Below, piece after piece: positions 1,502-19,376 of a stretch of 64,000 nucleotides of DNA. A program made the translations under genes and the position numbers. The DNA comes from a virus. Lineage: Duplodnaviria > Caudoviricetes. The number at the start of each line of letters is the position of its first letter. Position 1 is the first letter of the stretch. The notes under the pieces were generated by a model. That model did not search any database, was not told the origin of the DNA, and worked only from the letters and a program-made list of their open reading frames with translations. The stretch is from positions 96,001 through 160,000 of IMG/VR virus record IMGVR_UViG_3300042888_002988; one strand, 5' to 3'.

Positions 1502-3265
1502 ATGACCACGCCATTTGCCGCGCTCGCCGTAATGACGAAATCCGCTCACGCGTATTCAGTCGAACCTTCTCGCAACACTTCACCGGTGCTGCACCCGTTC
1601 GCTCAGCTGGATCCGTTCCTCAAGGAGGCGGGGTTCTTCGGCGACGTCACGGACGGTATTTGGAACAACACCATGAAGCCGCTTGGTAACGCCGTTGGGC
1701 AGATGGGTCAAGGCGTGGGACAGGTATTTGGAGGTATGTCGGAGGGTATCGGTAACACGCTGAAAGCTGCGCCTCGCGCGATTGGCGGAGCCCTTCAGGG
1801 CGGTATGAACGCATTCAAACAGCAGCTCACACAGCCGGGCGCCGTGAGCCTGGGATCGATCGGTCAGGGTATGATGGACGGCGGCTGGAATGCCGGCAAG
1901 CAGAGCCTTGGCTGGGCGGCTGACGGCGCGATGAAGAATATGCAGGGATTCGGTAACATCGCCGGCGGCGCAGCCAAGACAGCCTGGGGCGCGAATCCCC
2001 TGGTCATGGGCGGACGCGCAGCCTACGGCGCAGGTCAAGGCGTCATGAACGGCGTCCAGAACTTCGCGAACGATCTCAAAAGCCGTATGATGCCTCAAGG
2101 CGGCACCGCTCCAGGTGGTATACCATCTGGAATGCAGATGATTCCGCCAGGACAAACGGGTTCGATCATGCACGGCCCACCGGCACCTGGGACTCCCGCG
2201 AATCCTACTCCCGCGAATCCTACTCCTGCGCCGGGCACTGTCGCGCCCGGACAAAACAACCTGCAGAACAACATGCAGCCCGCGTCCGGTTTCGGTGGTA
2301 ACATCATGATGGGCGGCGGCGACAGCAATTCCGCCATGGGCGCAGGCTATGGTGGCGGCTTCAACCCCGGCGCGCCTCCCAACATGAGCGCCTCGGCCCC
2401 GCGTCCGGCCAATGGCTCGCCGAGCCCTGTCGGCAACGCGCCATCCTATCAGGGCCCGACTGCGGCCGACTACCAGCGGACGATGGGCAGCTACAATCCG
2501 AACTCACCATTCGACCAACGCAAGGCGCAGGCGATCGACGCAGCGTGGCAGCAGAACGGCGGGAGAATGTCCCCCAACCAGATGTATCAAGCTCCCGGCT
2601 ACATGGGCATCAGCAAGTCTGGCTCGCTGACTCCGTTTGCGATTTACGAACTCGACCCCGCGGCGAGCATGGAGAAAGCCGCCATGGCCGGCGGCATTGC
2701 CGGGTGGTTGCGGGGCGCTTTGCAACGCGGTGCCCAGGGTCTCAACCGTGGATCGCGGATGGCCAAAGCGACAGCCGGCCGCACGGCCAAGACTGAAGCA
2801 AACGCAGCGCAGAAGGTGCAAGCCGGTGCTACCTCGGTTGCTGGGGATCTCCCGAAGCTGCCTACCGGCCGCGAAGCTTTCCAGACGGCTTACGCCGGTG
2901 CCGGTAACGGCCGCCAAGGCCTCGCCGATTTCATGGGCAACGCCGGACTGCGCATCGACGCCTCCCCTGGCCTGCAGAAAGCCATCAACTACGGCGCACC
3001 CGCTGCGGCGGCCGGTGGCATCTTCTACGGCGGCAACCGGATGGGTCACAGCTCCGGCCTGGACGAGGGTCTCGACAAGGGCTTCGACACCGGAGCTGAC
3101 TATGGCATTCAGGCCGCGCTCGCCAACGCACCCAAAGACCCCGGCTTCTTCGGGCGCATCGCTGACGTGTTCACCGGCCAGCAGCAAGGTCCACAGGCCT
3201 ACGACATACAATCACTTCTGGACTCCAACAAGGCGCAGATCCTCAAACAACTCCGCGGCGCTTAA
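1502..3265 (+). CDS. Gly/Ala/Gln-rich putative internal head (ejection) polyprotein with PFAxL leaders
   Basis: 587-aa ORF. It has MTTPFAAL...TKSA, HPFAQLDPFLKEA and an internal TPFAIYELDPAASMEKAA, low-complexity segments and a hydrophobic AAAAGGIFYGG stretch. Confidence 0.6.
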   Translation: MTTPFAALAVMTKSAHAYSVEPSRNTSPVLHPFAQLDPFLKEAGFFGDVTDGIWNNTMKPLGNAVGQMGQGVGQVFGGMSEGIGNTLKAAPRAIGGALQGGMNAFKQQLTQPGAVSLGSIGQGMMDGGWNAGKQSLGWAADGAMKNMQGFGNIAGGAAKTAWGANPLVMGGRAAYGAGQGVMNGVQNFANDLKSRMMPQGGTAPGGIPSGMQMIPPGQTGSIMHGPPAPGTPANPTPANPTPAPGTVAPGQNNLQNNMQPASGFGGNIMMGGGDSNSAMGAGYGGGFNPGAPPNMSASAPRPANGSPSPVGNAPSYQGPTAADYQRTMGSYNPNSPFDQRKAQAIDAAWQQNGGRMSPNQMYQAPGYMGISKSGSLTPFAIYELDPAASMEKAAMAGGIAGWLRGALQRGAQGLNRGSRMAKATAGRTAKTEANAAQKVQAGATSVAGDLPKLPTGREAFQTAYAGAGNGRQGLADFMGNAGLRIDASPGLQKAINYGAPAAAAGGIFYGGNRMGHSSGLDEGLDKGFDTGADYGIQAALANAPKDPGFFGRIADVFTGQQQGPQAYDIQSLLDSNKAQILKQLRGA

Positions 3266-3277
3266 TCTGAAGATCGC

Positions 3278-4342
3278 ATGACTCCATTCGCCCAACTCGA
3301 ACATGGGGCGGGCCTATCCAAAGCCGCGTCACCCGGAACTATGCTGCGCGGCCTGCATAATCTGGTGCGCGGCGGTATCTGGAAGCACGTCGCCGAGAAG
3401 ACCGCGCCGTCCGGCCTGATGGGGCGCACGGCGCGCATGTTCCACAATCCAGTTACGGATAAGTCGACCCTGTTCAGCAACGCGCTGATGGGTTACGGCC
3501 TGACCGGTATGGGGGCACAGTTGGCCGGTTACGACATGCCTGGATCCAACCTCGCGCTCAACCTGGCTACCCCGGTGCTGGGTGCGTTATTCACCGCCCC
3601 GAGTCTCATCACTTCGATGAGGGCCGGAACCGACGCCAACAAGGCGCGGATGAAGGAGGACCTGATGTCTGGGGCACGTGGCGCTGGTAGTGATATGATC
3701 TCCCTGGGACAGATGGATCATCGCTTCCTGACTCAGCCTGGCCTGGCCCAGCAATACCTCCAGCAGAACGACCCTGACACCGCCAAGCTGGTGAACCAAT
3801 ACAGCACCGGGCAACACAAGCCGATGACCGGCCTGAAGCGGATGCAGTCCATGTTCGAGAATCCCCAGGATCTTATCAACAACCAAGTCGATCAGCACAT
3901 GCACAGTTTGATGCCTCAGTCGTCGCCGTTCGGTATGCACAAGGCCGGCGGTTTCGGGTCGGCGCTTAGGGCGGGATTCTCCCACGGGTTCCCGTGGTTG
4001 TTCCCAGCGCTGGGTGTGGGCATGCTAGGGCACTCCGTAATGAGCGACAAGCCATACGACGAGACCGCCATTCGCGCGCGCGGCTACGCTGGCGGGCAGG
4101 CCAAGATCCAGCAGGAGCTGGGCAACCTCAGCGGGATGGAACGCTTTGCGCTGCAGATGGATCCTTCGATGTTCGCCAACCGCCTAGAGGCTAAGCTGCC
4201 CGGCACCATTCAGAATTGGGAGCAGCAAACGGGACAGAAGCACCAGCCTGGTCTCATCAGCAATCTCGCGAGCGGTTGGAAGAAGGGTGGCGACACCGAA
4301 TACTACAGCTACGACGCCAAGGGCGGGCGAAAATACCTCTAA
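3278..4342 (+). CDS. Putative internal head protein with PFAxL leader and hydrophobic segments
   Basis: MTPFAQLEHGAGLSKAAS N-terminus; internal SPFGMHKAG; TM-like FPWLFPALGVGMLG. Confidence 0.6.
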   Translation: MTPFAQLEHGAGLSKAASPGTMLRGLHNLVRGGIWKHVAEKTAPSGLMGRTARMFHNPVTDKSTLFSNALMGYGLTGMGAQLAGYDMPGSNLALNLATPVLGALFTAPSLITSMRAGTDANKARMKEDLMSGARGAGSDMISLGQMDHRFLTQPGLAQQYLQQNDPDTAKLVNQYSTGQHKPMTGLKRMQSMFENPQDLINNQVDQHMHSLMPQSSPFGMHKAGGFGSALRAGFSHGFPWLFPALGVGMLGHSVMSDKPYDETAIRARGYAGGQAKIQQELGNLSGMERFALQMDPSMFANRLEAKLPGTIQNWEQQTGQKHQPGLISNLASGWKKGGDTEYYSYDAKGGRKYL

Positions 4343-4349
4343 CATCACC

Positions 4350-5213
4350 ATGCACACACCATCACCATTCGCCTGCCTGGGGGACACCCCCATGGAGAAA
4401 AAAGCCTTCGGTTCGTTGTTGCGTGGGGCCACTAACATGGTCTCGCGCCACGCTGACGACGCCGGTAAAATGCTCGCCAATAAGCAGCTGGCCAGCACCC
4501 TGATGCCGAAGGGACAGGCGTTTGACGATGCGATTATGGCATCCCTCGGTCCTCAAGGTGTTCGGAACGCGCAGCCTGTAGCGAAGGTGCGCAGCGCTCT
4601 GGATGCGGCCAACATGCGCTATCCTGCCCTATCAAGCGGTAGCACCGGGGAGTTATTAAATGGCGCGCTGGCTCAGTATCGACGCGGCGGACAGCTGGCG
4701 CCGTATCGCCTATCGCGTTTTTCCGGTCCATACGCTCACCCACGTGGAGGCTTGGATCGCGCGAACGCCGCCGCATTCCAGCGCGCGCAGCGGGAATTAG
4801 CGCGTAAAGGCCCAACTCCTTCGTCGATGGAGGAGCTACAAAAACTTTTACAGGGCAATTCCCGCGCGGCGGGTGCGCAGATGCGCTCACAATTACCGCT
4901 CGCGAATGATGGCTTGAATCTACAGATGAAACGTGATTATCTGGCACGCTTAGCGCCTAACTCACCGGCGCGCCCACGCGCGCTTCAGGCGGCTCCTGAT
5001 AATGTGCCTATAACATATTCGAATGGTGCCGCCAAACCGGCCGCACCATCAGCCGCTCCGGCCGTCGCCACTCCTCCAGCCATGCCAGCAGCAGCGGCAC
5101 CGACCGCTGCAGCCCCTCCGCCGATGCCGGTCAATAACCCGTCTGGTATGGGTATGGCGGGCAGCGTTTTAGGCGGCTTAGGAGCTGGCTATCTCGGCGC
5201 TGAGTATCTCTAA
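4350..5213 (+). CDS. Putative internal head protein with PFAxL leader
   Basis: Starts MHTPSPFACLGDTPMEKKAF; Ala/Pro linker; C-terminal Gly-rich hydrophobic tail GMAGSVLGGLGAGYLGAEYL. Confidence 0.6.
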   Translation: MHTPSPFACLGDTPMEKKAFGSLLRGATNMVSRHADDAGKMLANKQLASTLMPKGQAFDDAIMASLGPQGVRNAQPVAKVRSALDAANMRYPALSSGSTGELLNGALAQYRRGGQLAPYRLSRFSGPYAHPRGGLDRANAAAFQRAQRELARKGPTPSSMEELQKLLQGNSRAAGAQMRSQLPLANDGLNLQMKRDYLARLAPNSPARPRALQAAPDNVPITYSNGAAKPAAPSAAPAVATPPAMPAAAAPTAAAPPPMPVNNPSGMGMAGSVLGGLGAGYLGAEYL

Positions 5214-5227: not shown

Positions 5228-6532
5228 ATGCGCACACCACCGTCACCATTCGCTTGCCTCGGGCACACTGATATCGAAAAGCAAGCATTCGCGAAGCTAC
5301 TGAAAGGCCTCTCACAGCTCGTCGCCAAAGGTGGTCGAGGCACTGGTCGGGCATTGAAGGCGGCCCCCACCGGAGCCAAGAGTCCGCAGGAACTTGGGTT
5401 CCTCAAGGGTGAGCGCACGCACCCGTATCCTACCATGAGCGAGATGCCACCGCAGCGCTCACTGCCGTCGCAGCAAGGTAACGCCGTTCCGCTCGGTGGC
5501 GTCAACGGGCCGACGCCGAAATACGACCCCACGCGTCCTAAGATGACGGTGGAGGGTCAAGGTGGTGGTAACTATGTTGTCCTCGGTGGTGGCGGCCCTT
5601 CCAAAGGTTCGCCCACCCGTTACGGCCCTTTCGGTCCGACCGACATACGTTCCAAGTTGCACGCGGCCTCCACCGGCAAGAGTCCGCAGGAAATCGGTTT
5701 CCTCAAAGGCGAGCGCACGCATCCGTATCCGACCATGGCAGAAATGCCGCCGCAGCGTTCGATCGGCAAATCCGCCGCTGATCTCAAGGAAACCGCCAAG
5801 GAAACGCTGGGGGCTACTGCAGCCGCACCGCTCGGTATGTATGCCGGGGCGTTGGCTGCGCCACAGGCTGTTGGGCGGCTGCCTGCTTTCAAAAAGCTAC
5901 CACCACATTCGGCGCTGGGTGCTATTTTATTGAGCTTGATGTATGGGGGAGCGGCTGGCGGCGGTGTGGCGGCCAATGCCGGAGCCGAATTGCTTGGTTC
6001 CGAAAAGGGCGGCGTAGGCGCTAACGTCGGGGGCACGCTCGGCGGTGCTGCCGGTGGGGCTGCCGGCCTCCACGCGGGGGTTGCTATGCAGGATCTGCCC
6101 AAGTTGAAAAATCATTCCGGCAAGGCCATGCTGCTGGCAACACTTCTTGGTGGTGTCGGCGGTGCCATGGGCGGGCGCGAACTTGGTAAGATGGCAGCAG
6201 AGGAAGAAGCACCCAAGGAGCCCAAGGAAGCACCCAAACCGAAAGAAGGGGAAGTCGATGTCCGTCGTCAACGCGACGAGAAAGCGCTGCGCAACAGGCA
6301 CATCGCACTCTCGCTGAAGCGCGGCATGTCGGGCGGCATGCTCGGCGCAATCCTGGGCGGTCTCGGCGCGGCCGGGAACGAAGGTGGTATGACCGGCGGC
6401 CAAGGCGCGCTCGCGGGAGGTGCCGGCGGCGCGTTAGCTGGCGCGGGACTCGGTGCCGCTGAAGGTGGCGTGAAGAGACTGCTGGGGCTCGACCCGATCC
6501 TAGACACCACGCTGATCGCGCAGCGTGCGTGA
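5228..6532 (+). CDS. Putative internal head protein with PFAxL leader and glycine-zipper helices
   Basis: Starts MRTPPSPFACLGHTDIEKQAF; duplicated KSPQE(L/I)GFLKGERTHPYPTM segment; several GxxxG hydrophobic runs. Confidence 0.6.
   Translation: MRTPPSPFACLGHTDIEKQAFAKLLKGLSQLVAKGGRGTGRALKAAPTGAKSPQELGFLKGERTHPYPTMSEMPPQRSLPSQQGNAVPLGGVNGPTPKYDPTRPKMTVEGQGGGNYVVLGGGGPSKGSPTRYGPFGPTDIRSKLHAASTGKSPQEIGFLKGERTHPYPTMAEMPPQRSIGKSAADLKETAKETLGATAAAPLGMYAGALAAPQAVGRLPAFKKLPPHSALGAILLSLMYGGAAGGGVAANAGAELLGSEKGGVGANVGGTLGGAAGGAAGLHAGVAMQDLPKLKNHSGKAMLLATLLGGVGGAMGGRELGKMAAEEEAPKEPKEAPKPKEGEVDVRRQRDEKALRNRHIALSLKRGMSGGMLGAILGGLGAAGNEGGMTGGQGALAGGAGGALAGAGLGAAEGGVKRLLGLDPILDTTLIAQRA
5377..5762 (+). repeat. 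Two ~85-nt direct repeats, 300 nt apart, inside the 5228 gene
   Basis: caagagtccgcaggaa...ccgcagcg(c/t)tc occurs at 5377 and 5677. Confidence 0.9.
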
Positions 6533-6578: not shown

Positions 6579-8816
6579 ATGAGCGTGGAAATCATCGACC
6601 CTAACTACCAGTGGAAGCAGGCCGCATCGCAAGAGGGCGTTGATTACGGCGCCGTGCAGAAGTCCTTCATGGACCAGAGCTACGCTGTCGTGGCCAACAA
6701 GGCCAAGATCCTGTTTCAAGATCCGTTCCGCCTCGGCTTCGAGATCGTTCACCGCAACGAGAAGGCCACGAAGATGGTCGGTATCTACGCCTTCCGTGTG
6801 AACGGCCAACTGCTGTATGCCCCGGTGTTCTTCGTCAACGGCGAGATCAAGGCCGCTGACATGCTCTACCGCGCGGACGTCAAACGCTTCGTGCCGCTCA
6901 CGGAAGACTGGTGCGCCTACTTGGTGCGCGGTGTCCACGAGAATGCCGGCGAGCCAATCGACCGCAACCGCTTCCGCCAGGCCGACGCCTACATGGACCG
7001 CCTCGCTTACCCGCAGCGCGTCAAGTATGCGAGCGAGGACGAAGAGAGAACCGCGATGCTCGCCGAGTTCCGCAAGGCTGCCGCCGACGGCAGCCTGTGG
7101 GCGGACATCATGCTGCACTGCGCAGACAACACTCCACTCCGCAAACTTCTGCCGCTGGTCATCAACGAGCACGGCCCCGAGGCGCTCGAGAAGGTCGCAG
7201 CGTTCGTCGAGAACAGCCCAACCGCAGCACGTTACCTCGCCACCCGCTATACCCGGGAGGAGCTGCAGACCGTGGACGGTTGGATGGCCAAGGAAGCTTC
7301 CGGCCCGCGCCCCGCCATTCAGATCATCACTTCGCCCACGCTGGCCAAGTCGGCCGCGTCACGTGAGCGCGTCTTCGACAAGGGCTATGACCTCGTGGAC
7401 AGCCGCCCTGCGGAATCCATCAACACGGTCATCGAGGAAGTCGGTGACGGCACCATCAAGGGGCTCTCCGCTCCGGGCAAGGTGCAAGTGCTCATGGGCG
7501 ACGGAGAGATGGTGGAAGCGTTGCTGCTTCGCCAGGATTCATCCTTGCTGCGCGAGAATGGGTATCCTACTGCGGATCCGGACATCCTCTGCAAGCCTGA
7601 ATACGTCTACTTCCCGAAGGACAAGCAGCTGCTCAAGCTCAACTACGACCAGGACATTTTCGGCGACGAAATGATCGACCAGGACACCAGCGCGAAGGCC
7701 GTCACCGCGGAGTCGCTTGCCAGCGGTAAGTGCTACGTCGCGCTCAACACGGAGCGTCTGACGATCTCCGATCCGTTCCGCGTCGACAAGTCCGAGGACG
7801 ATGGCGAATGTTCGGTCATCTCGATCACCACGCGCTACGGCGATACTGAGCAGCTCCTCTATGCGCCAGGTCGCGGCGAAACGGCCGGGAACTACATCAG
7901 CGACGAGACCTTCTTCCTAGAGGTCGAGTGCGATGTCGAAAACGGGGATAGCGGCGAAATCCGTAGCGTCAAGCCGACCTGCAACAAGGTCCTTATGACG
8001 TCCCGCACTATCGACCAATGGTTCCGCACCGCCGGTGGCTTGACTACGGCCCACGACGTGACCGTGAAGTCGAATGGCGTTTCGTTCGATGTCGAGCACC
8101 GCGAAAACGGAACGCTTCTCAAGGCTGCCCGCAATCTCGGCTGGCTCGAAACGCACTTGGCCCTCGCCGAGGACTTCTCTATCAGCACCGACAAAGCCGG
8201 CGAGATCCTCGACAAGGCCATCGATCGCGACGTGTCCTATCGCATCTACGACACCCTCAGTAAGAAGGCCTACATCACCCGGCCTGAGGGTATGCAGCAG
8301 TGGATCCAATCCTACGACCCCGAGCTGCAGGTGCAGATGGACGCGCCGCAGATTCAGACGCTGTCGACCCACACTCCTGAGCGTCCGCGCCAACAGCAGC
8401 GCTACGGCGATGTCTACAAGGGACCTCGTTCCGAGAACCGCAAGACTGCCGACGCGCTGATCCCGATGGACGCCATCATGAACCAGTCTCCAGAGGAGCT
8501 GGCGCAGATGTCCGACGCCTACGACCTGCCGCACATCTTCGACCACGGATGCGTGGGTCAGATGTCGACGAACAACTACAGCATCATCGAGCAGATCAAG
8601 CAGTATATCCCGGACCTCGAAGCAGGTGTTGACCGCCTCTTCCGAATCCTGTTCCTTCTGCGCTACCGCCCGGCGGACTTCGAAGAACTCTACGGCAAGG
8701 ATGACCTCGTGGCATTCGAGCAGGAGCTGGCCGATCTCGCCACCAGATCCGGAGACAACCTGCTGCGCATGCTGCAGCGTTTCGATCCGGATCAGTATGC
8801 GGCCCAGGAGAACTGA
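6579..8816 (+). CDS. Large head-associated protein of unknown function (multiple K-x-A motifs)
   Basis: 745-aa ORF with strong codon bias; motifs WKQAAS, VKYAS, RKAAA, AKEAS, AKSAAS; globular N-domain LYAPVFFVNGEIKAADMLY. Confidence 0.55.
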   Translation: MSVEIIDPNYQWKQAASQEGVDYGAVQKSFMDQSYAVVANKAKILFQDPFRLGFEIVHRNEKATKMVGIYAFRVNGQLLYAPVFFVNGEIKAADMLYRADVKRFVPLTEDWCAYLVRGVHENAGEPIDRNRFRQADAYMDRLAYPQRVKYASEDEERTAMLAEFRKAAADGSLWADIMLHCADNTPLRKLLPLVINEHGPEALEKVAAFVENSPTAARYLATRYTREELQTVDGWMAKEASGPRPAIQIITSPTLAKSAASRERVFDKGYDLVDSRPAESINTVIEEVGDGTIKGLSAPGKVQVLMGDGEMVEALLLRQDSSLLRENGYPTADPDILCKPEYVYFPKDKQLLKLNYDQDIFGDEMIDQDTSAKAVTAESLASGKCYVALNTERLTISDPFRVDKSEDDGECSVISITTRYGDTEQLLYAPGRGETAGNYISDETFFLEVECDVENGDSGEIRSVKPTCNKVLMTSRTIDQWFRTAGGLTTAHDVTVKSNGVSFDVEHRENGTLLKAARNLGWLETHLALAEDFSISTDKAGEILDKAIDRDVSYRIYDTLSKKAYITRPEGMQQWIQSYDPELQVQMDAPQIQTLSTHTPERPRQQQRYGDVYKGPRSENRKTADALIPMDAIMNQSPEELAQMSDAYDLPHIFDHGCVGQMSTNNYSIIEQIKQYIPDLEAGVDRLFRILFLLRYRPADFEELYGKDDLVAFEQELADLATRSGDNLLRMLQRFDPDQYAAQEN

Positions 8817-9761: not shown

Positions 9762-9781
9762 TTCAACTTTTTCTTATGGGG

Positions 9782-9810: not shown

Positions 9811-9816
9811 CCCGCC

Positions 9817-11418
9817 ATGACACATGATTCTGCTGTTCGGACTGTGGTTAGTCTCGTGCCCGAGATTGAAAAGCGTGGCGCGGCTGCTGTCCTGACCGAG
9901 TATGCTACTCGCGAAGACCTTCCGGCTGCGCAGCTTGAGAAGCTGGCCCAGGTTTATAACACCCTGCGCACGGTCAGTCATATCGATCACGCCCAACCTG
10001 ATGAGCGCGGCGCCACCGTGCCGCTGCTGGACGTGCCTACGCTCGTCGTCGGCTACGCCACGGGGCTCGACCAGGAGAAGGTCGCCGCCGGCCCGCATTC
10101 GTTTTCCTCGCACGACCCGCGCACCGTGGATCTCAACCTCGCCCTGAAGCGTGACATGGGACTGCGGAAGGCTGCCGCCCAGGCCACCGGGACGCCCGAC
10201 ACGGTCAATCAGCTGCTCAAACAGGCGGTGAGCCACGAGCAAGCAGCTGCCGCGCTACTGGAGGTCGAGCTCGACCTCCAGGACGAAATGTCCAAGCTCG
10301 CCGGTGAGCTGTTCTCGGCCGCGCCTCGCGTCGGTGCTGAACACTTCCGCCGCGACATCTCCGAGTTCGAAGAGGAAGCGCTGCAGTATCAGCCCGCCAG
10401 CATCGTGAAAGCGGCCGGCGACTTCATGGAAAAATTTGCCGCACCTCACCGCACGAAGCTCGTGCGCTTCGACTACAATCAGCCGGTGCAGGCGTATGCC
10501 TACGACATCGGCCACCAGAACGGCCAGAAGATGGCTGACCTGGCCAAGGCAGCCAGCACGCTGGAGATTATCAAGATGGCTGCGAAGACCATCGAAGAAG
10601 TCCGCGGCGCTGGCGCTTCGCCAGATGATCGGGCACACGTGGAACCATCAGCCACGCCTACCGCGGTGAATGGCACGACCGCCACGCTGTCACCCGATAT
10701 CATGGCCGCAATGTTCGGCGGCGCACAACCCGCTGCTCCCCCGGACATCGTGAAGAAGGACAACGACGAGGACGCTCCCACTGAGGACGAGCAACTCGGC
10801 AAAGCCGAGGGTGTGGTATCCGGGACACCCGAGAAGCCCCAGCCCGGCGGGAAGGCTCCTACCAACGACCTTCCCCTTGACAGGGAAACTACCAAGGACA
10901 CTAAAACCAGCGGTGGTGACGAAGGTAAGAAATCCGATGCCGCATCCATCACCCGCGATGAGATCCTCGCCATGTTTGCCGCTCCTCTGACTGCCGGTCG
11001 CGACGCCATCCAGGGCGCGGCTCGCAAGGCTGATGAAACCCTCGGCGCTATCGTCGGTAAGGAGCGCACGAACAAAGCGCAGATGTCTTCCGACCTGTCC
11101 GTCGAGGACATTCGCCGCGCGATGAACGTGCGCCGTCTGATCGGCACGGATCCCGTGCTGCGCGAGGCCGATCCCAAGGAAGTGCTTGAGGTCTACAATT
11201 CCGTCGTGGCCCGCAACCCGCAGCTCGCCGGTGACATGGCGGCCCTGCGGCTCGTCCTGCGGGAGGCTGTCAGCTACGAGGGCCTCACTCTGGATTCCCA
11301 GAAGCTCCTCACCGAGATTCGCCGCAATTCTGAGGAGGCCGACAAGACCTTCAGCGAAAACGAACGCCGCCGCTATGCAGTGGGCGGAACCACTCCTCTA
11401 CCGATCGCCAAAGTATGA
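9817..11418 (+). CDS. Head-associated helical protein with many K-x-A motifs
   Basis: EKLAQ, EKVAA, RKAAA, LKQAV, VKAAG, EKFAA, AKAAS, IKMAA; acidic linker. The ATG at 9817 is preferred over the GTG at 9781 because of the promoter position. Confidence 0.6.
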   Translation: MTHDSAVRTVVSLVPEIEKRGAAAVLTEYATREDLPAAQLEKLAQVYNTLRTVSHIDHAQPDERGATVPLLDVPTLVVGYATGLDQEKVAAGPHSFSSHDPRTVDLNLALKRDMGLRKAAAQATGTPDTVNQLLKQAVSHEQAAAALLEVELDLQDEMSKLAGELFSAAPRVGAEHFRRDISEFEEEALQYQPASIVKAAGDFMEKFAAPHRTKLVRFDYNQPVQAYAYDIGHQNGQKMADLAKAASTLEIIKMAAKTIEEVRGAGASPDDRAHVEPSATPTAVNGTTATLSPDIMAAMFGGAQPAAPPDIVKKDNDEDAPTEDEQLGKAEGVVSGTPEKPQPGGKAPTNDLPLDRETTKDTKTSGGDEGKKSDAASITRDEILAMFAAPLTAGRDAIQGAARKADETLGAIVGKERTNKAQMSSDLSVEDIRRAMNVRRLIGTDPVLREADPKEVLEVYNSVVARNPQLAGDMAALRLVLREAVSYEGLTLDSQKLLTEIRRNSEEADKTFSENERRRYAVGGTTPLPIAKV

Positions 11419-12254: not shown

Positions 12255-13697
12255 ATGGAAAAATCATTTGCCACTGACGACCACGACCAGCTGCTGGCAG
12301 CAGCAGACGGTCACGCGTTCACATTCTTCGAACGCCCCTATGGGCGTGGCTCATTCACCAAGTCTGCGTCGGATGTCATCTCGAAGTTGGACCTGCAGAA
12401 CCACATGCCGCCCGACACCCACTTCGGCGTGCATCTCATTTCCATGGGGTCCGAGGAAGACTACGGTGCCAATCGCAACGGTGACTCTGCCTCGCGCCGT
12501 TCGCTGCAAGAATACCACCCCACCTTCGAGAAGTTTGGGAACGTGTTCCGTGAGCACAACAACAAAGATCCCCGCAAGCGCTGTGGCGACGTCAAGCTGG
12601 CTCGCTACAACCCGCGCATGCACCGAGGAGAGCTCATCGTATGGGTCGACAAGGACAAGGCGCCCGACATGTATAAAAAGGCCAAGGCCGGCGAAGAGCT
12701 GTCGTGGTCCATGTCAATGCGCCTGCCGCATGACGAATGCTCGTGCTGCCGCAAGAAGAGCAAGCGCACCACCGAGTATTGCAGCCACCTTCGCAACAAC
12801 ATGCTGCAGTTCGTGCCTGGGTTTGAAAAGTATGCCTATGCCAGGAACGAAGAAGGTGTGAAGTTTTTCGACATCAGCGAGGTGAAGCGCCGCGCGGATC
12901 GGATCGCCACATACCTGGGTTACACTTTCAGTCCGGGCGACATGGCCAAGGCCGCGTCCTCCAGCACCATCATCACCGGCGCGCAGTGGGCCGAGCATCA
13001 GTTCGGCGTATCGCGTGCTGTGCCATTCGACGCGTGGGAAGATCTCACGCTCGACAAGCTGGCCGCCGCCGAGGAGTTTGTTCGGAACGCCGATGCCAAT
13101 ACGCTCACCACGCTCTATAAGATGGCCCCGCGCGATCTTACCCGCGAGCAGATCGAAACGCTGGCCGGCCCCGACTTCCGCAACGTCGGCGGTGAGCTTG
13201 CCAAGAAGGCGATGATTATCAACTTCATGACGTTCGCGTCGATGGTCACTAACCGCTCGATCGAGGAGCTGCAGAAGGACGCCGCGCTATGCGATGCGAT
13301 GGATGAGAAAATGCCATCGCTACTCTCTGATATGGCTCGCGACGGCGGCTCCGCATGCGGCGAGGAAGTCGCTGATTCGGTGTCACCCGATGAAGTCGGC
13401 TGCTCGTTCTCGCCAGGCAAGGACAACATCGATCGCCTCATGCAAGAGGTCGGTGACGAATGCGGTATGAAACCTGAGGATGCATCCAACCGTGCGCTAA
13501 GCGTGACCATCATGAAGACCGCCGGCCTGCGCCGCTCGGGTAAACTAACCGAGGTCGACGCCTACTACAGCGGTCTGATCGCCGCATACGGACACTACGT
13601 CGTCAAGGCTGCTCACCAGATCAAGGATTTACCCGGTATCTCCGCCAACACATTGTTCCGCGGCCTGGCCGCCAGTCTTTCAGTATCCCTACGATAA
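12255..13697 (+). CDS. Prohead (capsid maturation) protease, HK97/assemblin-like fold, with C-terminal extension
   Basis: Candidate catalytic His in VFREHNNKD and Ser in ELSWSMSM, followed by a Cys cluster (DECSCC...YCSHL); located upstream of scaffold and capsid genes. Confidence 0.8.
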   Translation: MEKSFATDDHDQLLAAADGHAFTFFERPYGRGSFTKSASDVISKLDLQNHMPPDTHFGVHLISMGSEEDYGANRNGDSASRRSLQEYHPTFEKFGNVFREHNNKDPRKRCGDVKLARYNPRMHRGELIVWVDKDKAPDMYKKAKAGEELSWSMSMRLPHDECSCCRKKSKRTTEYCSHLRNNMLQFVPGFEKYAYARNEEGVKFFDISEVKRRADRIATYLGYTFSPGDMAKAASSSTIITGAQWAEHQFGVSRAVPFDAWEDLTLDKLAAAEEFVRNADANTLTTLYKMAPRDLTREQIETLAGPDFRNVGGELAKKAMIINFMTFASMVTNRSIEELQKDAALCDAMDEKMPSLLSDMARDGGSACGEEVADSVSPDEVGCSFSPGKDNIDRLMQEVGDECGMKPEDASNRALSVTIMKTAGLRRSGKLTEVDAYYSGLIAAYGHYVVKAAHQIKDLPGISANTLFRGLAASLSVSLR

Positions 13698-13786: not shown

Positions 13787-14926
13787 ATGGCCGAACAACA
13801 ACACAAAGTGGCTGCGGCGATTCGCCAATACGCGGAAAAGCTCGCATCCGAAAAAGCAGCCGCCGGCGAAGGCGCACCAGACCGCTTGACTGTCGCTGAT
13901 GGTCAGGGTGGTATCACAACCTCCAAGGGAACCGTTCCAAAAGATGTCGGCCAGTCCGAGCTTGAAGTTCGCCAGCCCAAGGATGGGACCGCAGTCCAAA
14001 CCTCCAGCGCGAACGCCAGCGGCGGTGAGCGTATGACGGTGGCCGACGGTCAAGGCGGCATCACTGCCTCCAAGGGGAGCGTCCCCGCCGATCCGGGACA
14101 AGCGGAACTCGAAGTCAATCAACCCACCGACGGTTCCGTCGTGAAGGGTGCAACCATTTCCAAGCGGGCTGCCAGCATTCGCGCTGCGCTGATCAACGCC
14201 AACCCTGCGCTGGCCGAGAAGTTCGCGCCCGCCTCTCAGTCGTCCGCCGCTCCCGCAGTGAAGACGGCTGGTAACAACCAGGCTGCGGCTTCCGCTCCCA
14301 ACATTCAACTGAGCAGTGATACGCTGTGCAAGATTGCTCGAGCCATTCTCTCCTCCGACGAAGGTGTGCGTTTCGCGCACGACATGCTGGAGAAGCAAGC
14401 CGGCGAAGAAGCTGCACGCAATCAGATCATGGAGGCCATTCAGGCTTCACAGGTCTACGACGAGAGCGAGCATGTCAAACAAGCCGCTTTCAACGATCTC
14501 GGCAACAAGGCCGTGACCATTCACAACTCGCTCCTGCAAGCTGGCGTGACCGAAGACGATGCGGACTCGATCCTCAAGCAGGCTTCCGTCATCCAGGAGA
14601 AGCTCGCCGGCTACGAGCACCCGCTGCTCAAGGCTGCGTTCGCTCAAGGCATGGACGATGCCTCCCTCATGGCTGCCGCTGACGAAGCTGGCGGCGAAGA
14701 AGGTGCTCCTCCGATGGACGAAGCTCTCCCGATGGGCGGTGAGCAACTCGGCGAAGAAGAGATCATGGCGCTGCTTGAAGAGATGCTCGCCTCCGGTCAA
14801 ATCACCGAGGAAGACATCAAGACCGCAATCGGAGCCGCTGGCGGAGCCGGAGCCGAAGGAGGCATGCCTCCTGAAGGTGGCGGCGCGCCGCCCGAAGAAG
14901 CAGCCATGGCAGCCGCCGGAGCCTGA
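13787..14926 (+). CDS. Capsid scaffold-like protein
   Basis: Located between protease and capsid genes; helical, with a very acidic C-terminus, many K-x-A motifs and an internal 49-aa-spaced duplication. Confidence 0.6.
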   Translation: MAEQQHKVAAAIRQYAEKLASEKAAAGEGAPDRLTVADGQGGITTSKGTVPKDVGQSELEVRQPKDGTAVQTSSANASGGERMTVADGQGGITASKGSVPADPGQAELEVNQPTDGSVVKGATISKRAASIRAALINANPALAEKFAPASQSSAAPAVKTAGNNQAAASAPNIQLSSDTLCKIARAILSSDEGVRFAHDMLEKQAGEEAARNQIMEAIQASQVYDESEHVKQAAFNDLGNKAVTIHNSLLQAGVTEDDADSILKQASVIQEKLAGYEHPLLKAAFAQGMDDASLMAAADEAGGEEGAPPMDEALPMGGEQLGEEEIMALLEEMLASGQITEEDIKTAIGAAGGAGAEGGMPPEGGGAPPEEAAMAAAGA

Positions 14927-14958
14927 TCCACCCCACCCTATTTTTTACCACACAACGC

Positions 14959-15372
14959 ATGAACAAAGCAGCCTTCAGCGCAATGCTCGGTGTGATCGAT
15001 GATGCCATCGATCTCGCGGACTCCGCTGTCAAGTCCGCGGAGTTGGCGCAAAGCCGAGACGCCGAGCCAGTCACACTGGTGAAGGTCGCCGCGGAGCGCT
15101 ACCAGTCCGCTGCTGCTGAGCTCATGAAAACTGGCGCATTCCGAGACTACTCCCGGGATAGCCTCGCAAAATCTCTCGAGTCGGCCGGCCCTGCTGGTCT
15201 GCTCGGGTTTCTGGAGAAGCTGGCCTCCAGGGCTGTGTTTCCGCTCGATGTCGATTTCGGCAGCGATGGGGACCTAGTCGATAAGTCAGCCACCAACCGG
15301 ATGGATGCCCGTCCCGCTGAAAACAAGACCGACCTTTGGGAACGGTGTTGCCAAGAAGCGGGACTAAGCTGA
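14959..15372 (+). CDS. Small head-assembly protein
   Basis: 137-aa ORF in the head operon; MNKAAF, VKSAE, VKVAA, EKLAS. Confidence 0.55.
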   Translation: MNKAAFSAMLGVIDDAIDLADSAVKSAELAQSRDAEPVTLVKVAAERYQSAAAELMKTGAFRDYSRDSLAKSLESAGPAGLLGFLEKLASRAVFPLDVDFGSDGDLVDKSATNRMDARPAENKTDLWERCCQEAGLS

Positions 15373-16033: not shown

Positions 16034-17017
16034 ATGTCTGACCAAAACGCAAAAGACCTGCTCATCAAGAAGCAACTCATCGACGATATCCTCGATTCCG
16101 AGGACGGCGTCGTGAAGCGCGCTTCTGCCGCCACCTCGAAAGCTACTCGGACTCAAATCCGGGAAGAAGGCTTTCAGCGTGCGATCATGTCGTTCGATAT
16201 GATCACCAACGAGGAACTCGATTACTTCGGTGATTCTGAGCTCCCCGGTGTGTGGTTCGAACTCGAGCCTGACTCGCCGCCGGCCCGTATCATCCCCTAC
16301 AATGACACCCCGAACACCTTCGCGTATCGCGCGGAGAAATACGTGGTTCTCATTTCGGTGATTACGACCGAGGAAGCGACGAAGAACGTCAACCATCTCC
16401 GTACTTACAAGACGGACATCCGCCAGATCGTCAACGACAACATGTTGCGTGACATCCACACCGCAGAAGATACCGCGTTCCTCGCGGAGGTCGACCGCCT
16501 CGTGGGTTCACCAGTCGCCTACGGCACTGTTGAAGCTGCGATCGTCGCCGGGGGCACCGGCGCTCAGAACGTGACTATGGGTACTGCTACCTTTAGTCGC
16601 GCCAACCTGAAGCGTGCCGTTAGCTACCTCATCGAGCGTCAGCTGCCAGTCGGTGTGTTCCTCGTGAACCAACGGACTGCCAACGAGTTCCTCGGCTGGG
16701 ATCGTAACGAGATGGGTGGTGATCTGTCCCAAGAGGTGGCTCGCAAGGGCCTCAAAGCTCTTGAGACGTTCGAGATGTTCGGTATCCCGTTCATCAGCAC
16801 CATCAAGAACAACCTCGTCGCCAACGGTGTGATGTACCAATTCGCTCCGCGTGAGTTCCTCGGAAACGCGCTGATGCTTGAGGACATCACTGTGACGATC
16901 AAGAAGGAGTATGACATCATCCGTATGCGTGCCCAGGAGCAAGTCGGTCTCACGATCGGCAACCCCCTCGGTCTGCAGAAGCTGAACTACACCATGTCCA
17001 GCGTCACTGGCGCCTGA
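16034..17017 (+). CDS. Major capsid protein (HK97-like fold)
   Basis: 327 aa; highly optimised codons; capsid-like RIIPYNDTPN and TIKKEYDIIRMRAQEQVGLTIGNP C-terminus; followed by a strong terminator. Confidence 0.85.
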   Translation: MSDQNAKDLLIKKQLIDDILDSEDGVVKRASAATSKATRTQIREEGFQRAIMSFDMITNEELDYFGDSELPGVWFELEPDSPPARIIPYNDTPNTFAYRAEKYVVLISVITTEEATKNVNHLRTYKTDIRQIVNDNMLRDIHTAEDTAFLAEVDRLVGSPVAYGTVEAAIVAGGTGAQNVTMGTATFSRANLKRAVSYLIERQLPVGVFLVNQRTANEFLGWDRNEMGGDLSQEVARKGLKALETFEMFGIPFISTIKNNLVANGVMYQFAPREFLGNALMLEDITVTIKKEYDIIRMRAQEQVGLTIGNPLGLQKLNYTMSSVTGA

Positions 17018-17045
17018 TCCTTCTAGCCCTTAACAAGGCCTTCTG

Positions 17046-17258: not shown

Positions 17259-17265
17259 ACGAACC

Positions 17266-18327
17266 ATGAGCGAGCCGATGACTCAACAGTTTGTAACCGC
17301 ATTCCTAACCACCTGCTTCGACGCAGGCCTGAGCAAGGAAGCCGCCGCTGAACTCCTGCAGAAGGAGTCTGTCGACGTAGAGCTTCGTCGACGCCCAGCG
17401 TTCGCAGAAGGTTATCTGAAACAGGCATCAATGTTCCCGGGTCAGCTATGCCCCGCGCTGCGTGTCCGTTCCGCCCGCTCCGAGATGGAGAAGGCAGCTT
17501 TGCTGAAGGGGCTCGGCCGCGCTGGTAAGGCGCTGCTGTGGGATGCTCCTGCTGGTATCGCTCAGTCGCTCTTCGGAGCGGGAAAAGGCGTAGCTAAAGG
17601 CGTGGGGCGCACCTTTGGCCCACAGAAAGCCTCGCTCTTGGAGCGCTATCCGTTCACCGTCGGTATGGCGGGCATGGCCGGCGTCGGGGCCGGCACTTAC
17701 GGCCTGACGAAGTGGCTCAACCAGGACAACGGTCTGGGTGCCAATAGCAATGATCCATTCCTCCCACCAGGCGGCTACAGCAAGGCGCAATACGACGCCA
17801 TGTATGAGAACCGCCTCAAGGAACACGAGCCTGGTATCTTCTCCACCAACAAGGAATATGACTCTAGCGCTGGCCGTATCGCTGAGCTGCAGAAAGAGAT
17901 CGAGGAAGGTCGCGGCGGTAGTAACGCCTATCAGGAACTTCAACAACTGGAGCGCCGCCGTGGCAGCCTCGGCGGTGCCCGCTCGGACTACACCGAGCAA
18001 CTGGACATGAACCAGGATTCGAGCCGCGACCTCATGTCCCGGATCGCCAACCGCACTGCGGATCTTGAGAATCAGCGCACCGCTTGGTGGGCCGCGCCGA
18101 AGCGTTGGCTGATGCAGGCCCGCGGTGGCGATCTGTTCGACTCCAGCATCTCACAACGCCACTTCGACCGTCAGATCGGCGGTCTGCAGGACAACTCGGC
18201 GCGCGCCAGGATGCAAGAGCGTCTGGCTGCGGATCGGGCCAAGCTCGTACGCGGCGGTGCCACCGGGCGTTCCGCGCCTCAGCGCACCCAGGAACAGCTC
18301 ACCACGGATTTCTTCCCCGCCTACTAA
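17266..18327 (+). CDS. Putative internal head protein with TM-like segment and coiled coil
   Basis: LSKEAAA, LKQAS, MEKAA; hydrophobic FTVGMAGMAGVGAGTYGL; coiled-coil C-half. ATG 17266 chosen over the upstream start at 17074. Confidence 0.6.
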   Translation: MSEPMTQQFVTAFLTTCFDAGLSKEAAAELLQKESVDVELRRRPAFAEGYLKQASMFPGQLCPALRVRSARSEMEKAALLKGLGRAGKALLWDAPAGIAQSLFGAGKGVAKGVGRTFGPQKASLLERYPFTVGMAGMAGVGAGTYGLTKWLNQDNGLGANSNDPFLPPGGYSKAQYDAMYENRLKEHEPGIFSTNKEYDSSAGRIAELQKEIEEGRGGSNAYQELQQLERRRGSLGGARSDYTEQLDMNQDSSRDLMSRIANRTADLENQRTAWWAAPKRWLMQARGGDLFDSSISQRHFDRQIGGLQDNSARARMQERLAADRAKLVRGGATGRSAPQRTQEQLTTDFFPAY

Positions 18328-18333
18328 TCAGCC

Positions 18334-18756
18334 ATGTCCGACGTCATCACCATTGCTGATGTCCGCGAGGACATGCTTGATCGCCAAGCTGAAGACCATT
18401 TGGTCCTGACCGACCTAGCGTTCACTGACCCGGACATCGAGTGGGCCATGAAGGCATGCATGCGCAAATTCAACGGGATCAGACCGATCGGTATCAACAT
18501 CTCGTGGGATGCGATGCCGAGCAACACGTCGGTGTTCTTCGACGGCGTCGCTTGGGCGCTGTGCCGCCGCTGGCACCGCAACGTCAGCATGAACGACTAC
18601 GACTACTCGGCCGGCGGTGTGACAGCCAACGTGCAGGGATCACTGCTGAAGAACCTGGAGCGCCTGCGCGACAAGTTGGAGCAGGAGTTCGTCGAGGCCG
18701 CCACCAATTTGAAGGTATCTGCTAACCTTGATGATGCATGGGGGGTAATAGGATGA
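18334..18756 (+). CDS. Head-tail adaptor (neck) protein
   Basis: 140-aa helical protein downstream of the capsid gene; the YDYSAGGVTANV hairpin plus C-terminal helix pattern is typical of adaptors. Confidence 0.6.
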   Translation: MSDVITIADVREDMLDRQAEDHLVLTDLAFTDPDIEWAMKACMRKFNGIRPIGINISWDAMPSNTSVFFDGVAWALCRRWHRNVSMNDYDYSAGGVTANVQGSLLKNLERLRDKLEQEFVEAATNLKVSANLDDAWGVIG

Positions 18757-19376
18757 CACCGTTCGCACGACTGGAACCAATGATGCTGAAGAGGGCCGGA
18801 ACGCAGCCCTTCCCGTTCGCTCCGCAATACATGCCGGGGCGAGTTCCGCAACCGATGCCAGACCCTGGGCAAGCGCCGGCCGCGCCTGATGAAGGCGGTT
18901 GGGGCTGGAAAGACACCGGCGGCCTGGCGCTGGATATCGCAGCCGGATCCAACCCGTTCACCGGCGTCCCATACTACGGCTACAAGGCGTTCAACGATTT
19001 CAAGGACGGGAACATCTGGTCCGGGCTCGGCAACGTCGCCTGGGGCGCGGCGTCCTTCTTGCCCGGCGCCGGATCTGCAGCCAAAGGCATCGTAGGCGGT
19101 ATCTCTCGTGGTGCCGCGAAAATGACCCCAGGTTTCGTCAAGTCTATGCAGACTGGCGGTAAGCTGTCGGCTGGTATGACCAAGGGTATTGGCACTGGAA
19201 GCTTGGTCGGCGGCCTGGGCGCAACGGGGATGGGTATGTATACCGGCGAAGGCATGCCGCAGCAACCCCAGCAACAGCCGATGATGCCGCAGCAGATGCC
19301 GCAGCAACAGCAGCCATTCAACTTCATCGACCACTCGATCAACACCATCCGCGGCACGCAGGGTGCAGCACCATAA
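18753..19376 (+). CDS. PFAxL-leader protein with a pre-toxin-TG-like hydrophobic segment
   Basis: Starts MTPFARLEPMMLKRAG; contains LALDIAAGSNPFTG...GNIWSGLGNVAWGAASFLPGAGSAAKG. Confidence 0.55.
   Translation: MTPFARLEPMMLKRAGTQPFPFAPQYMPGRVPQPMPDPGQAPAAPDEGGWGWKDTGGLALDIAAGSNPFTGVPYYGYKAFNDFKDGNIWSGLGNVAWGAASFLPGAGSAAKGIVGGISRGAAKMTPGFVKSMQTGGKLSAGMTKGIGTGSLVGGLGATGMGMYTGEGMPQQPQQQPMMPQQMPQQQQPFNFIDHSINTIRGTQGAAP

What the first reader, a model, noticed from the sequence alone, without database searches (positions are those of the whole stretch)
1502..19376. Shared N-terminal (T/S/H)PFAxL...K-x-A leader on five unrelated proteins: a candidate capsid-targeting signal
Seen: MTTPFAAL..TKSA, HPFAQL..LKEA and an internal TPFAIY..MEKAA (gene 1502); MTPFAQL..SKAA and an internal SPFGMHKAG (3278); SPFACL..EKKA (4350); SPFACL..EKQA (5228); MTPFARL..LKRA (18753). 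The sequences after each K-x-A are unrelated. Known: T4 internal proteins use a short capsid-targeting sequence removed by the prohead protease. Inference: PFAxL is a new packaging signal. Its recurrence inside ORFs suggests polyproteins of several individually tagged cargo units loaded into the head and injected at infection.
Basis: partly seen in the sequence, partly recalled or inferred. Interest (0 to 1): 0.85.

Follow-up and report, generated by a model that had tools for sequence, protein, structure and literature searches.

The report
Shared cleavable leader on phage head cargo
Several unrelated small proteins encoded beside the portal gene of an uncultured 200-kb phage begin with the same short peptide (TPFAxL, then K-x-A), which most likely acts like phage T4's capsid-targeting sequence: an address tag that loads cargo into the head and is then cut off by the head protease.

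Summary
Seven [T/S/H]PFAx[L/Y]…K-x-A copies lie in five head-module genes of a 200-kb phage, and no copy in N-terminal or module-junction context lies anywhere else in the genome. The leader is conserved in relatives down to about 31% protein identity. It sits on at least ten unrelated protein families, and its synonymous codons differ between copies.

It changes in concert within lineages: F becomes Y in every leader of a sister clade, and a distant relative puts a quite different shared leader (EKLQAAQ…KEA) on six proteins.

The K-x-A half is a wider motif, hydrophobic-x-K-x-A. It is 4.7-fold enriched in head proteins and invariant at three sites in the probable prohead protease, in the portal and in the capsid protein. 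Cultured distant relatives (Salmonella phage Arash, Vibrio phage D69) also have it.

One internal leader marks a gene-fusion junction, because the downstream module is a separate, leader-tagged gene in other genomes. The internal SPFGMHKAG is only a conserved K-x-[A/G/S] site.

Best reading (about 0.6): a T4-CTS-like bipartite leader, with a targeting part and a protease site. Packaging and cleavage are inferred, not shown. The scan's earlier notes on this motif all concern this same genome.

The parts
1502..3265 (+). Gene 1, a 587-aa Gly/Ala/Pro/Gln-rich basic two-module protein. It has tandem N-terminal leaders at 1502-1546 and 1592-1630, and an internal leader at 2615-2680 flanked by K-S-G and K-A-A.
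   Evidence: The C-terminal module (about residue 400 to the end) is a stand-alone leader-tagged gene in L011, L013 and L014. The tandem leader is also seen in L026/P0152.
3278..4342 (+). Gene 2, 354 aa. Its leader MTPFAQL..LSKAA lies at 3278-3328. A conserved internal hydrophobic-x-K-x-[A/G/S] site lies at 3923-3949 (SPFGMHKAG).
   Evidence: Orthologues occur in every related locus. Their leader is PFAxL in clade A and YHxL in clade B. In the AF2 model residues 1-19 and 215-255 are unstructured with pLDDT below 50, and a helix starts at residue 20.
4350..5213 (+). Gene 3, 287 aa, basic (net +14). Leader MHTPSPFACL..MEKKA at 4350-4406.
   Evidence: There is no homologue in related loci apart from the first 39 residues of gene 4, so it is lineage-specific cargo.
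5228..6532 (+). Gene 4, 434 aa, 19% Gly, net +18. Leader MRTPPSPFACL..IEKQA at 5228-5287.
   Evidence: It is a singleton family.
18753..19376 (+). Gene 5, 207 aa, Gly/Pro-rich. Leader MTPFARLEPMMLKRA at 18753-18797.
   Evidence: Among 18 homologues down to 31% identity, F4, A5, L7 and K13 are conserved in at least 90% and are among the best-conserved columns.
12255..13697 (+). Probable prohead (head maturation) protease, 480 aa. Conserved K-x-A sites lie at 12354-12368, 12942-12956 and 13509-13523.
   Evidence: phrog_18299 'head maturation protease' at E 2.3e-8, matched by 7 of 8 family members. The best PDB match of the AF2 model is T4 gp21 (5jbl_A, Z 5.9, rmsd 3.7 over 112 residues), which is weak. 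His/Ser/His positions are invariant and the K of all three K-x-A sites is conserved.
16034..17017 (+). Major capsid protein with an N-terminal ..GVVKRA/SAAT site at 16106-16123.
   Evidence: phrog_2522. The site is conserved in all relatives and appears as GL[V/T]KEA/GAAM in Arash and D69.
6579..8816 (+). Portal protein with conserved K-x-A sites at 6612-6626, 7284-7298 and 7341-7355. The leader genes cluster directly upstream of it.
   Evidence: It aligns with more than 130 homologues, in the synteny RNAP beta' - leader genes - portal. The residues of the K-x-A sites are invariant or conserved in at least 90% of sequences.
9781..11418 (+). 545-aa head-module protein with 8 hydrophobic-x-K-x-A sites against 1.4 expected. 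It is a candidate core or scaffold component.
13787..15372 (+). Scaffold-like proteins at 13787-14926 and 14959-15372, with 6 and 4 hydrophobic-x-K-x-A sites. They are candidate docking partners for the leader.
   Evidence: Their position between the protease and the capsid gene matches that of scaffold genes. The docking role is inference.
17281..18327 (+). Head-module protein with K-x-A sites at 17329-17343, 17413-17427 and 17485-17499 but no PFAxL leader.
   Evidence: The start was set by orthologues that begin MTQ(K/Q)F.

Best explanation
The peptide is a bipartite, removable capsid-targeting leader.

Its first half ([T/S]-P-F-A-x-L; more generally small-x-[F/Y]-x-x-L) is proposed to dock the precursor to a shared partner inside the assembling prohead. 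That partner could be the scaffold or core, the portal, or the inner face of the capsid protein.

Its second half (hydrophobic-x-K-x-A, 0-9 residues downstream) is the recognition site of the phage's prohead protease. The protease is proposed to cut after the Ala and free the mature, basic, Gly-rich cargo. The cargo then stays in the head with the DNA and is presumably ejected at infection.

Because the tag is short and portable, new cargo genes acquire it, and tagged modules can be fused into, or split out of, polyproteins at K-x-A junctions.

Shown here: the motif, its restriction to these genes, its conservation, its portability, its lineage-wise concerted change, the wider K-x-A motif in head proteins, and one fusion/fission case.

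Inferred: docking, the identity of the partner, cleavage and its exact bond, presence in virions, and injection.
For: 1. Specificity. Leader copies occur only in five head-module genes of the 200-kb genome and at the syntenic places of the complete relative G001. A leader profile run against 1.84 billion representative proteins finds 13 proteins at E<=0.001. Twelve carry the match at residue 1. The thirteenth (P0152) has three matched stretches, the best at a module junction. All those inspected belong to this phage clade.

2. Conservation at the protein level. F, A, L and K are conserved in at least 90% of homologues of 18753-19376 down to 31% identity. They are invariant in the N-terminal alignment A4. 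The copies use different synonymous codons.

3. Portability. After the leader is removed, 34 leader-bearing proteins fall into 3 multi-genome families plus 11 singletons. L011 has five consecutive leader genes upstream of its portal plus one downstream.

4. Concerted change, as expected for one shared receptor. All leaders have F in clade A. All have Y (xYHxL, TPYRAL, TAYQAL) in L012-L014, including orthologues of three families. The distant locus L031 carries a different shared leader, N-x-x-K-L-Q-A-A-Q..K-E-A, on six N-termini around its portal.

5. K-x-A behaves as a protease site.
- Hydrophobic-x-K-x-A occurs 47 times in head-module proteins against 10.1 expected; the rest of the genome has 74 against 62.5.
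- It is conserved at three sites flanking the catalytic domain of the probable protease, in the portal and in the capsid protein N-terminus.
- It is present in head proteins of Arash and D69, which lack PFAxL.
- It coincides with recombination boundaries between polyprotein modules.
- In the AF2 model of gene 3278 both sites lie in unstructured segments.

6. Fusion and fission. The internal leader of gene 1502 aligns with the N-terminal leader of the stand-alone L011 gene. In every fused form it is preceded by a second K-x-[A/G] site.

7. Design parallel with T4. T4 has 10-19-residue N-terminal propeptides in which the early residues target and the late residues direct processing. They sit on basic internal proteins that are poorly conserved between relatives (PMC9026906). 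The cargo here is also basic, net +4 to +18.
Against: - There is no experimental datum: no virion proteome, no mature N-terminus, and no cultured phage with the motif.
- The protease assignment rests on a PHROG hit and a weak fold match. hhalign against T4 gp21 is not significant, and Pfam gives nothing.
- Other presumed packaged proteins lack the PFAxL part. The upstream enzyme polyproteins are one case; the RNAP subunits, which are packaged in Arash, are another. So it is at most a class-specific address.
- A conserved amphipathic stretch follows K-x-A in several proteins, so the functional unit could be a longer, uncleaved N-terminal domain.
- The variable spacing between the two halves (0-9 residues) fits two independent elements but proves neither.
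- The F-to-Y switch could reflect a single ancestral difference in each gene rather than co-evolution.
Confidence: 0.6

Rival explanations
1. The whole peptide is only a processing signal. PFAxL would be an exosite that helps the prohead protease bind these substrates, much as leader peptides guide maturation enzymes. Targeting into the prohead would depend on other parts of the proteins.
For: PFAxL always lies close to a K-x-A site. Internal copies lie between two K-x-A sites. A protease that co-evolves with its exosite would also explain the lineage-wise change.
Against: Most K-x-A sites (capsid protein, portal, scaffold-like proteins, the protease itself, the polyproteins) have no PFAxL, so the protease does not need it. 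A spacing of 0-9 residues is awkward for a fixed exosite. In T4 the equivalent N-terminal residues act in targeting, not processing.
Confidence: 0.17
2. The motif is part of an uncleaved N-terminal domain of mature ejection or membrane-active proteins. It could be a docking peptide for the portal or tail channel, or a membrane-insertion element. The K-x-A next to it would be coincidental or structural.
For: A conserved basic amphipathic segment follows K-x-A in several families, and genes 4350 and 5228 are similar over 39 residues. The cargo proteins are Gly-rich with some hydrophobic segments. The genes sit next to the portal gene.
Against: The K-x-A motif is strongly enriched in head proteins and positionally conserved in the probable protease. 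The leader is predicted unstructured, with the first helix starting just after K-x-A. A fused module retains a leader bracketed by two sites. The leader is attached to proteins with no other similarity.
Confidence: 0.15
3. The similarity is a relic of recent duplication or recombination of 5' gene ends, with no function of its own.
For: The genes are adjacent, and genes 4350 and 5228 share an extended N-terminal stretch.
Against: The motif is conserved over portal identities from 100% down to 37-48%, while the flanks diverge beyond recognition. The codons differ between copies. A copy lies 12 kb away in gene 18753. An analogous but different leader occurs in L031.
Confidence: 0.03

Closest known systems
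Capsid targeting sequence (CTS) of phage T4 internal proteins IPI/IPII/IPIII and Alt, removed by prohead protease gp21 (Mullaney & Black 1996; review PMC9026906)
   Same: It is a short N-terminal peptide shared by otherwise unrelated, basic, poorly conserved head-internal proteins. It is bipartite: the early residues target and the last residues form the protease site. The same protease motif also occurs in the capsid protein, the scaffold and the protease itself.
   Different: There is no sequence similarity (T4's tag ends in L/I-x-E; this one is PFAxL…K-x-A). The spacing between the two halves is variable. Tandem and internal copies occur at fusion junctions. The leader sequence is lineage-specific across a large uncultured clade. 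Targeting and cleavage are not shown here. The protease is at best a very distant relative of gp21.
Propeptides of phiKZ-like giant phage head and ejection proteins (phiKZ gp175, SPN3US gp245; motif A-x-E; PMC10052503, PMC5694885)
   Same: These are also large phages with a virion multisubunit RNA polymerase, many head proteins processed at a simple tripeptide motif, and multiple cuts within propeptides.
   Different: Most of their propeptides are long (111-254 residues) and carry no shared address motif. The cleavage motif is acidic (A-x-E), whereas here it is basic/Ala. The capsid protein here is small (327 aa), and its PHROG match (phrog_2522, E 2.5e-7) is to a family of about the same length (318 profile positions).
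Encapsulin cargo-loading peptides
   Same: A short conserved peptide on unrelated cargo proteins directs them into a shell built from an HK97-fold protein.
   Different: Encapsulin tags are usually C-terminal, are not cleaved, and bind the shell protein directly. No protease or DNA is involved.
Herpesvirus assemblin cleavage sites ([V/L/I]-x-A | S; from my own knowledge, not tested here)
   Same: P1 is Ala and P1' is a small residue. The protease self-processes at sites flanking its catalytic domain. T4 gp21 shares the assemblin fold, and gp21 is the best, though weak, structural match here.
   Different: The Lys at P3 and the hydrophobic residue at P5 are specific to this clade. The cut position here is inferred only.

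Membership tests
T4-type capsid targeting sequence system | A short N-terminal peptide shared by otherwise unrelated head-associated proteins | tested here: met
   There are seven copies in five genes. The mature parts have no BLASTP similarity to each other, except for the first 39 residues of genes 4350 and 5228. Across relatives there are at least ten families.
T4-type capsid targeting sequence system | The leader ends in the same motif that marks processing sites of the capsid protein, scaffold and protease | tested here: met
   Hydrophobic-x-K-x-A is found in the capsid protein, portal, scaffold-like proteins and the protease. It is 4.7-fold enriched in head proteins.
T4-type capsid targeting sequence system | The phage encodes a gp21/assemblin-type prohead protease | tested here: inconclusive
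   phrog_18299 at E 2.3e-8 (7 of 8 members). The best PDB match is T4 gp21 at Z 5.9, on a model with pLDDT 60. hhalign and Pfam are not significant.
T4-type capsid targeting sequence system | Sequence homology of the leader to the T4 CTS | tested here: not met
   The leader consensus M-T-P-F-A-Q-L..E-K-x-A ends in K-x-A, not in T4's L/I-x-E processing motif. I ran no direct alignment to the T4 CTS, whose sequence I did not retrieve. The relation is therefore treated as analogy, not membership by descent.
T4-type capsid targeting sequence system | The leader is removed in the mature virion protein | not testable with these tools
   This needs mass spectrometry or N-terminal sequencing. The Arash paper gives no cleavage analysis.
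T4-type capsid targeting sequence system | The leader is necessary and sufficient to package a foreign protein | not testable with these tools
   This needs a cultured phage or a reconstituted prohead system.
Encapsulin cargo-loading peptide | An uncleaved, usually C-terminal peptide that binds the shell protein | tested here: not met
   The leader is N-terminal or at module junctions, and is always followed by a protease-type site.

The most novel reading that the evidence does not exclude
A large uncultured clade of 125-217-kb phages uses lineage-specific, co-evolving 'zip-code' leaders (PFAxL, YHxL, EKLQAAQ…), each ending in the clade-wide K-x-A protease site. These leaders address an interchangeable set of cargo modules to the head. 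The injected proteome could then be read from sequence, and cargo genes could be gained, fused and split simply by carrying the tag. This would be a natural, programmable protein-delivery system distinct from T4's.
Probability: 0.45. Interest if true: 0.75.

Novelty: new variant of a known kind. Interest (0 to 1): 0.6.

Why it matters
Apart from T4, sequence-defined capsid-targeting signals are almost unknown. In giant phages, how dozens of internal and ejected proteins are selected for packaging remains an open question.

A short, recognisable tag plus a simple cleavage rule would have three uses:
- It would let the packaged or ejected proteome of a whole uncultured phage clade be predicted from sequence.
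- It would give a natural test case for co-evolution between a tag and its receptor, because three different tags occur in related lineages.
- It would offer a compact handle for loading foreign proteins into phage heads.

The K-x-A rule can be tested now in a cultured relative, Salmonella phage Arash.

Tried and rejected
- **Near relatives among sequenced phages.** Megablast of 20 kb against 50,697 phage records found no match. tblastn of gene 3278 found none either.
- **Function of the cargo.** Pfam and PHROGs gave nothing useful for the five cargo proteins; the only hit was a weak tape-measure-like low-complexity match for gene 1. ESM-Atlas look-ups for genes 3278 and 18753 returned only unnamed viral clusters with scores below 0.9. 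tblastn and an HMM of the cargo against the Arash and D69 loci showed no homology.
- **Protease family.** The PDB sequence search found nothing. Foldseek gave no hit at E<=0.001. Only the VIA re-ranking put T4 gp21 first, at Z 5.9. hhalign against T4 gp21 gave probability 0.2%. Pfam on all eight family members gave nothing.
- **A looser regular expression.** [F/Y]xx[L/F/Y]…K-x-[A/G/S] proved too permissive, with 49 hits genome-wide, so it was dropped in favour of the PF-anchored pattern and a weight matrix.
- **Other candidate copies.**
  - The in-frame 'PTPFALP' upstream of gene 17281 is rejected as a leader. It lies before the start used by all orthologues, in the 250-nt gap after the capsid gene.
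  - A C-terminal 'TFANLKGAG' in the 804-aa protein about 5.8 kb before the window was left as probable chance.
- **Access to relatives.** The genome search could not reach the ENA, Logan and NCBI contigs, so upstream regions were fetched through portal look-ups instead.
- **Co-folding.** Co-folding the leader with scaffold, portal or protease is not possible with the single-chain predictor available.


Full report
**Context.** The window is bases 96,001-160,000 of a single 200,158-bp virus contig with GC 0.606. The first 20 kb is a head module on the + strand. In order it holds:
- the C-terminal part of a multisubunit RNA-polymerase beta' subunit (PF04998);
- four small genes;
- the portal gene (6579-8816);
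- several genes of unknown function;
- a probable head maturation protease (12255-13697; phrog_18299, E 2.3e-8);
- scaffold-like acidic proteins;
- a decoration-like protein;
- the major capsid protein (16034-17017; phrog_2522);
- three more small genes.

No sequenced phage is close. The nearest cultured relatives by capsid protein, at 26-27% identity, are Salmonella phage Arash and Vibrio phages D69, D181 and D148. Arash virions contain the RNAP beta and beta' subunits by mass spectrometry (PMC10585845). Portal searches show an uncultured clade of more than 130 proteins, on contigs up to 217 kb.

**Observation.** Over the whole genome in six frames, PFAx[L/Y] followed within 10 residues by K-x-[A/G/S] occurs seven times, all in the five named genes. 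Five copies lie within the first 45 residues, including a tandem pair in gene 1502, and one is internal. The remaining PF[AG]x hits are scattered and mostly in non-coding frames. A weight matrix trained only on leaders from other genomes scores above 10 at six places. Five of them are in four of the leader genes; the fifth leader gene, 18753, was missing from my crude gene set. The sixth is an in-frame PTPFALP in the non-coding gap upstream of the real start of the 17281 gene. Shuffled proteomes give 0.9 hits above that threshold. The copies use different synonymous codons, so the constraint acts on the protein, not on a DNA repeat.

**Conservation and portability.**
- The complete 184-kb relative G001 (portal 65% identical) has five copies at the syntenic positions and none elsewhere.
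- Homologues of gene 18753-19376, down to 31% identity, keep M-T-P-F-A-x-L-G-x-h-x-K-x-A. F4, A5, L7 and K13 are conserved in at least 90%, while the next 40 columns are barely alignable.
- Homologues of gene 3278 behave likewise.
- In L011 (portal 48%), five consecutive genes upstream of the portal and one downstream of the capsid gene start with MTPFAQLEKSA or a near variant.
- After the leader is removed, 34 leader-bearing proteins fall into three multi-genome families and eleven singletons by BLASTP. The tag therefore sits on many unrelated proteins, and the cargo set turns over between genomes. Genes 4350 and 5228 have no homologue in the other loci.
- A 34-column profile of the leader, searched against 1.84 billion representative proteins, finds only 13 proteins at E<=0.001. 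Twelve carry the match at residue 1. The thirteenth (P0152) has three matched stretches, the best at an internal module junction. All those inspected are from this phage clade.

**Lineage-wise change.**
- Loci with portals 37-43% identical (L012, L013, L014) replace F with Y in every leader: MSFYHAL, MNRYHRL, MNSYHLL, MSHYHAL, MSLYHAL, MTPYRAL, MTAYQAL. This includes the orthologues of the 3278 family, the gene-1 family and the syntenic 18753-position gene.
- In a distant locus (L031, portal 28%), six N-termini around the portal, one of them internal and in tandem, share a quite different leader, N-x-x-[K/R]-L-x-A-x-Q-x-L…K-E-[A/S].
- Other distant loci show very short N-terminal stretches that end in K-x-A.

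A tag that is uniform within a genome but differs between lineages is what a shared receptor would produce. Common ancestry of each gene cannot be fully excluded for the F/Y switch.

**The K-x-A half.** This half belongs to a broader motif, hydrophobic-x-K-x-A, usually followed by A, S or G.
- In proteins of the head module it occurs 47 times against 10.1 expected from per-protein shuffles. The upstream polyprotein block has 16 against 7.5. The rest of the genome has 74 against 62.5.
- It is conserved near the N-terminus of the capsid protein (GVVK[R/K/T]A/S).
- It is conserved at three places in the portal.
- It is conserved at three places in the probable protease: before the catalytic domain, after it, and near the C-terminus. 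This pattern recalls the self-processing of T4 gp21 and the herpesvirus assemblins.
- Arash and D69 carry the same motif in their capsid protein, protease homologue, scaffold-like and small internal proteins, but have no PFAxL.
- Between this genome and G001, blocks of the upstream enzyme polyproteins have been exchanged with breakpoints at K-x-A sites.
- In the AF2 model of gene 3278 (pLDDT 62), residues 1-19 and the segment that holds the internal site (215-255) are unstructured, and the first helix begins right after K-A-A-S.

The protease assignment is only probable. Seven of eight family members hit phrog_18299. The best structural match of a mediocre model is T4 gp21 at Z 5.9, rmsd 3.7 Å over 112 residues. 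Foldseek alone, hhalign against gp21, the PDB sequence search and Pfam are all negative.

**Internal copies.** The C-terminal module of gene 1502 is conserved (…R-M-G-H-S-S-G…D-P-G…V-F-T-G-Q…). It is fused in the window, L009, L001, L010 and L026. In L011 it is a separate gene that starts with its own MTPFAALGSDLEKQA, and it is also separate in L013 and L014. In every fused form the internal leader is immediately preceded by another K-x-[A/G] site, so it would be excised as a 15-22-residue peptide. If the cut falls after the A/G, the new N-terminus lies 2-4 residues before PFA, as in native N-termini. The internal SPFGMHKAG of gene 3278 is different. Orthologues keep only h-x-K-x-[A/G/S] in a disordered linker, so it is a probable cleavage site and not a leader.

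**Cargo.** The five proteins are rich in Gly, Ala, Pro, Gln and Met, carry a net charge of +4 to +18, and have few strongly hydrophobic segments. Nothing matches them in Pfam, PHROGs, the Atlas, or the Arash and D69 loci. Several mature N-termini begin with a basic amphipathic stretch (..LL[R/K]G..LV).

**Interpretation.** The anatomy matches the design of the T4 capsid targeting sequence. That sequence is a 10-19-residue N-terminal propeptide on basic internal proteins that are poorly conserved between relatives. Its early residues target the protein to the prohead core, and its last residues form the gp21 site (PMC9026906). I therefore read PFAxL as the targeting half and h-x-K-x-A as the processing half, with about 0.6 confidence. 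Docking, the receptor, the scissile bond, presence in virions and ejection are all inferences.

The tag is not universal for this phage's packaged proteins. The K-x-A-rich enzyme polyproteins start with only a minimal M-L-M-L-H-K-Q-A, and the RNAP beta' subunit has no leader. PFAxL therefore addresses one class of cargo, perhaps to a particular site such as the portal-proximal core.

The rivals are a pure protease exosite (0.17), an uncleaved N-terminal functional element of mature ejection proteins (0.15) and a duplication relic (0.03).

**Novelty.** The mechanism class is known from T4. The motif, the cleavage rule, the lineage-specific variants and the fusion/fission behaviour in this uncultured clade appear undescribed in the literature I searched. 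The scan's earlier notes on this motif all come from readings of this same genome.

Noticed in passing
G000 genome 77441-80272 and 84936-87845 (18.6 and 11.1 kb before the window start); G001:C1:13920-17936: Enzyme-bearing polyproteins are built of modules delimited by K-x-A. Residues 89-342 of the 943-aa protein lie, in G001, inside the orthologue of the 969-aa protein. The BLAST segment boundaries (1-211, 202-483, 479-800) fall at the K-x-A sites at residues 207 and 479.
   Followed up: partly
L031 (IMGVR_UViG_3300028364_000018) 7418, 8299, 9600, 12124, 12265, 12944: A distant relative (portal 28%) has six N-termini around its portal that share a different leader, M-N-N-x-E-K-L-Q-A-A-Q-x-L…K-E-A. 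The design is the same but the sequence is not.
   Followed up: partly
L010:4261-7248, L011:2723-5722, L015:4787-7774, L030:5613-8669: The RNAP beta' gene upstream of the leader genes is about 1,000 aa in these relatives. In L010, L011 and L015 it has LAGLIDADG or Hint hits, which suggest an intein. In the window and in L009, L012, L013 and L014 it is 612-629 aa without them.
   Followed up: no
L030:16630-19335: The protease homologue of this relative is 901 aa, about twice the usual 480-500 aa. It may carry an insertion or an intein.
   Followed up: no
window 58615-59682 (+): A 355-aa protein far from the head module has 8 hydrophobic-x-K-x-A sites against 0.9 expected. Genome genes 3126-4601 (6 against 1.1) and 8138-10294 (which begins MIKAAS) are likewise enriched. 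These are further candidate protease substrates.
   Followed up: no
window 17018-17280: A gap of about 250 nt without a credible gene follows the capsid gene. It contains an in-frame 'PTPFALP' that mimics the leader but lies upstream of the start used by all orthologues.
   Followed up: partly
window 6612-6626: The portal N-terminus carries a conserved W-K-Q-A-A motif at residues 12-16 (W12 and A16 invariant, K13 in at least 90% of sequences). This suggests a very short portal propeptide.
   Followed up: no
window 1477-1501, 3253-3277, 4325-4349, 5203-5227: No obvious Shine-Dalgarno sequence lies in the 25 nt upstream of the ATG of the leader genes.
   Followed up: no
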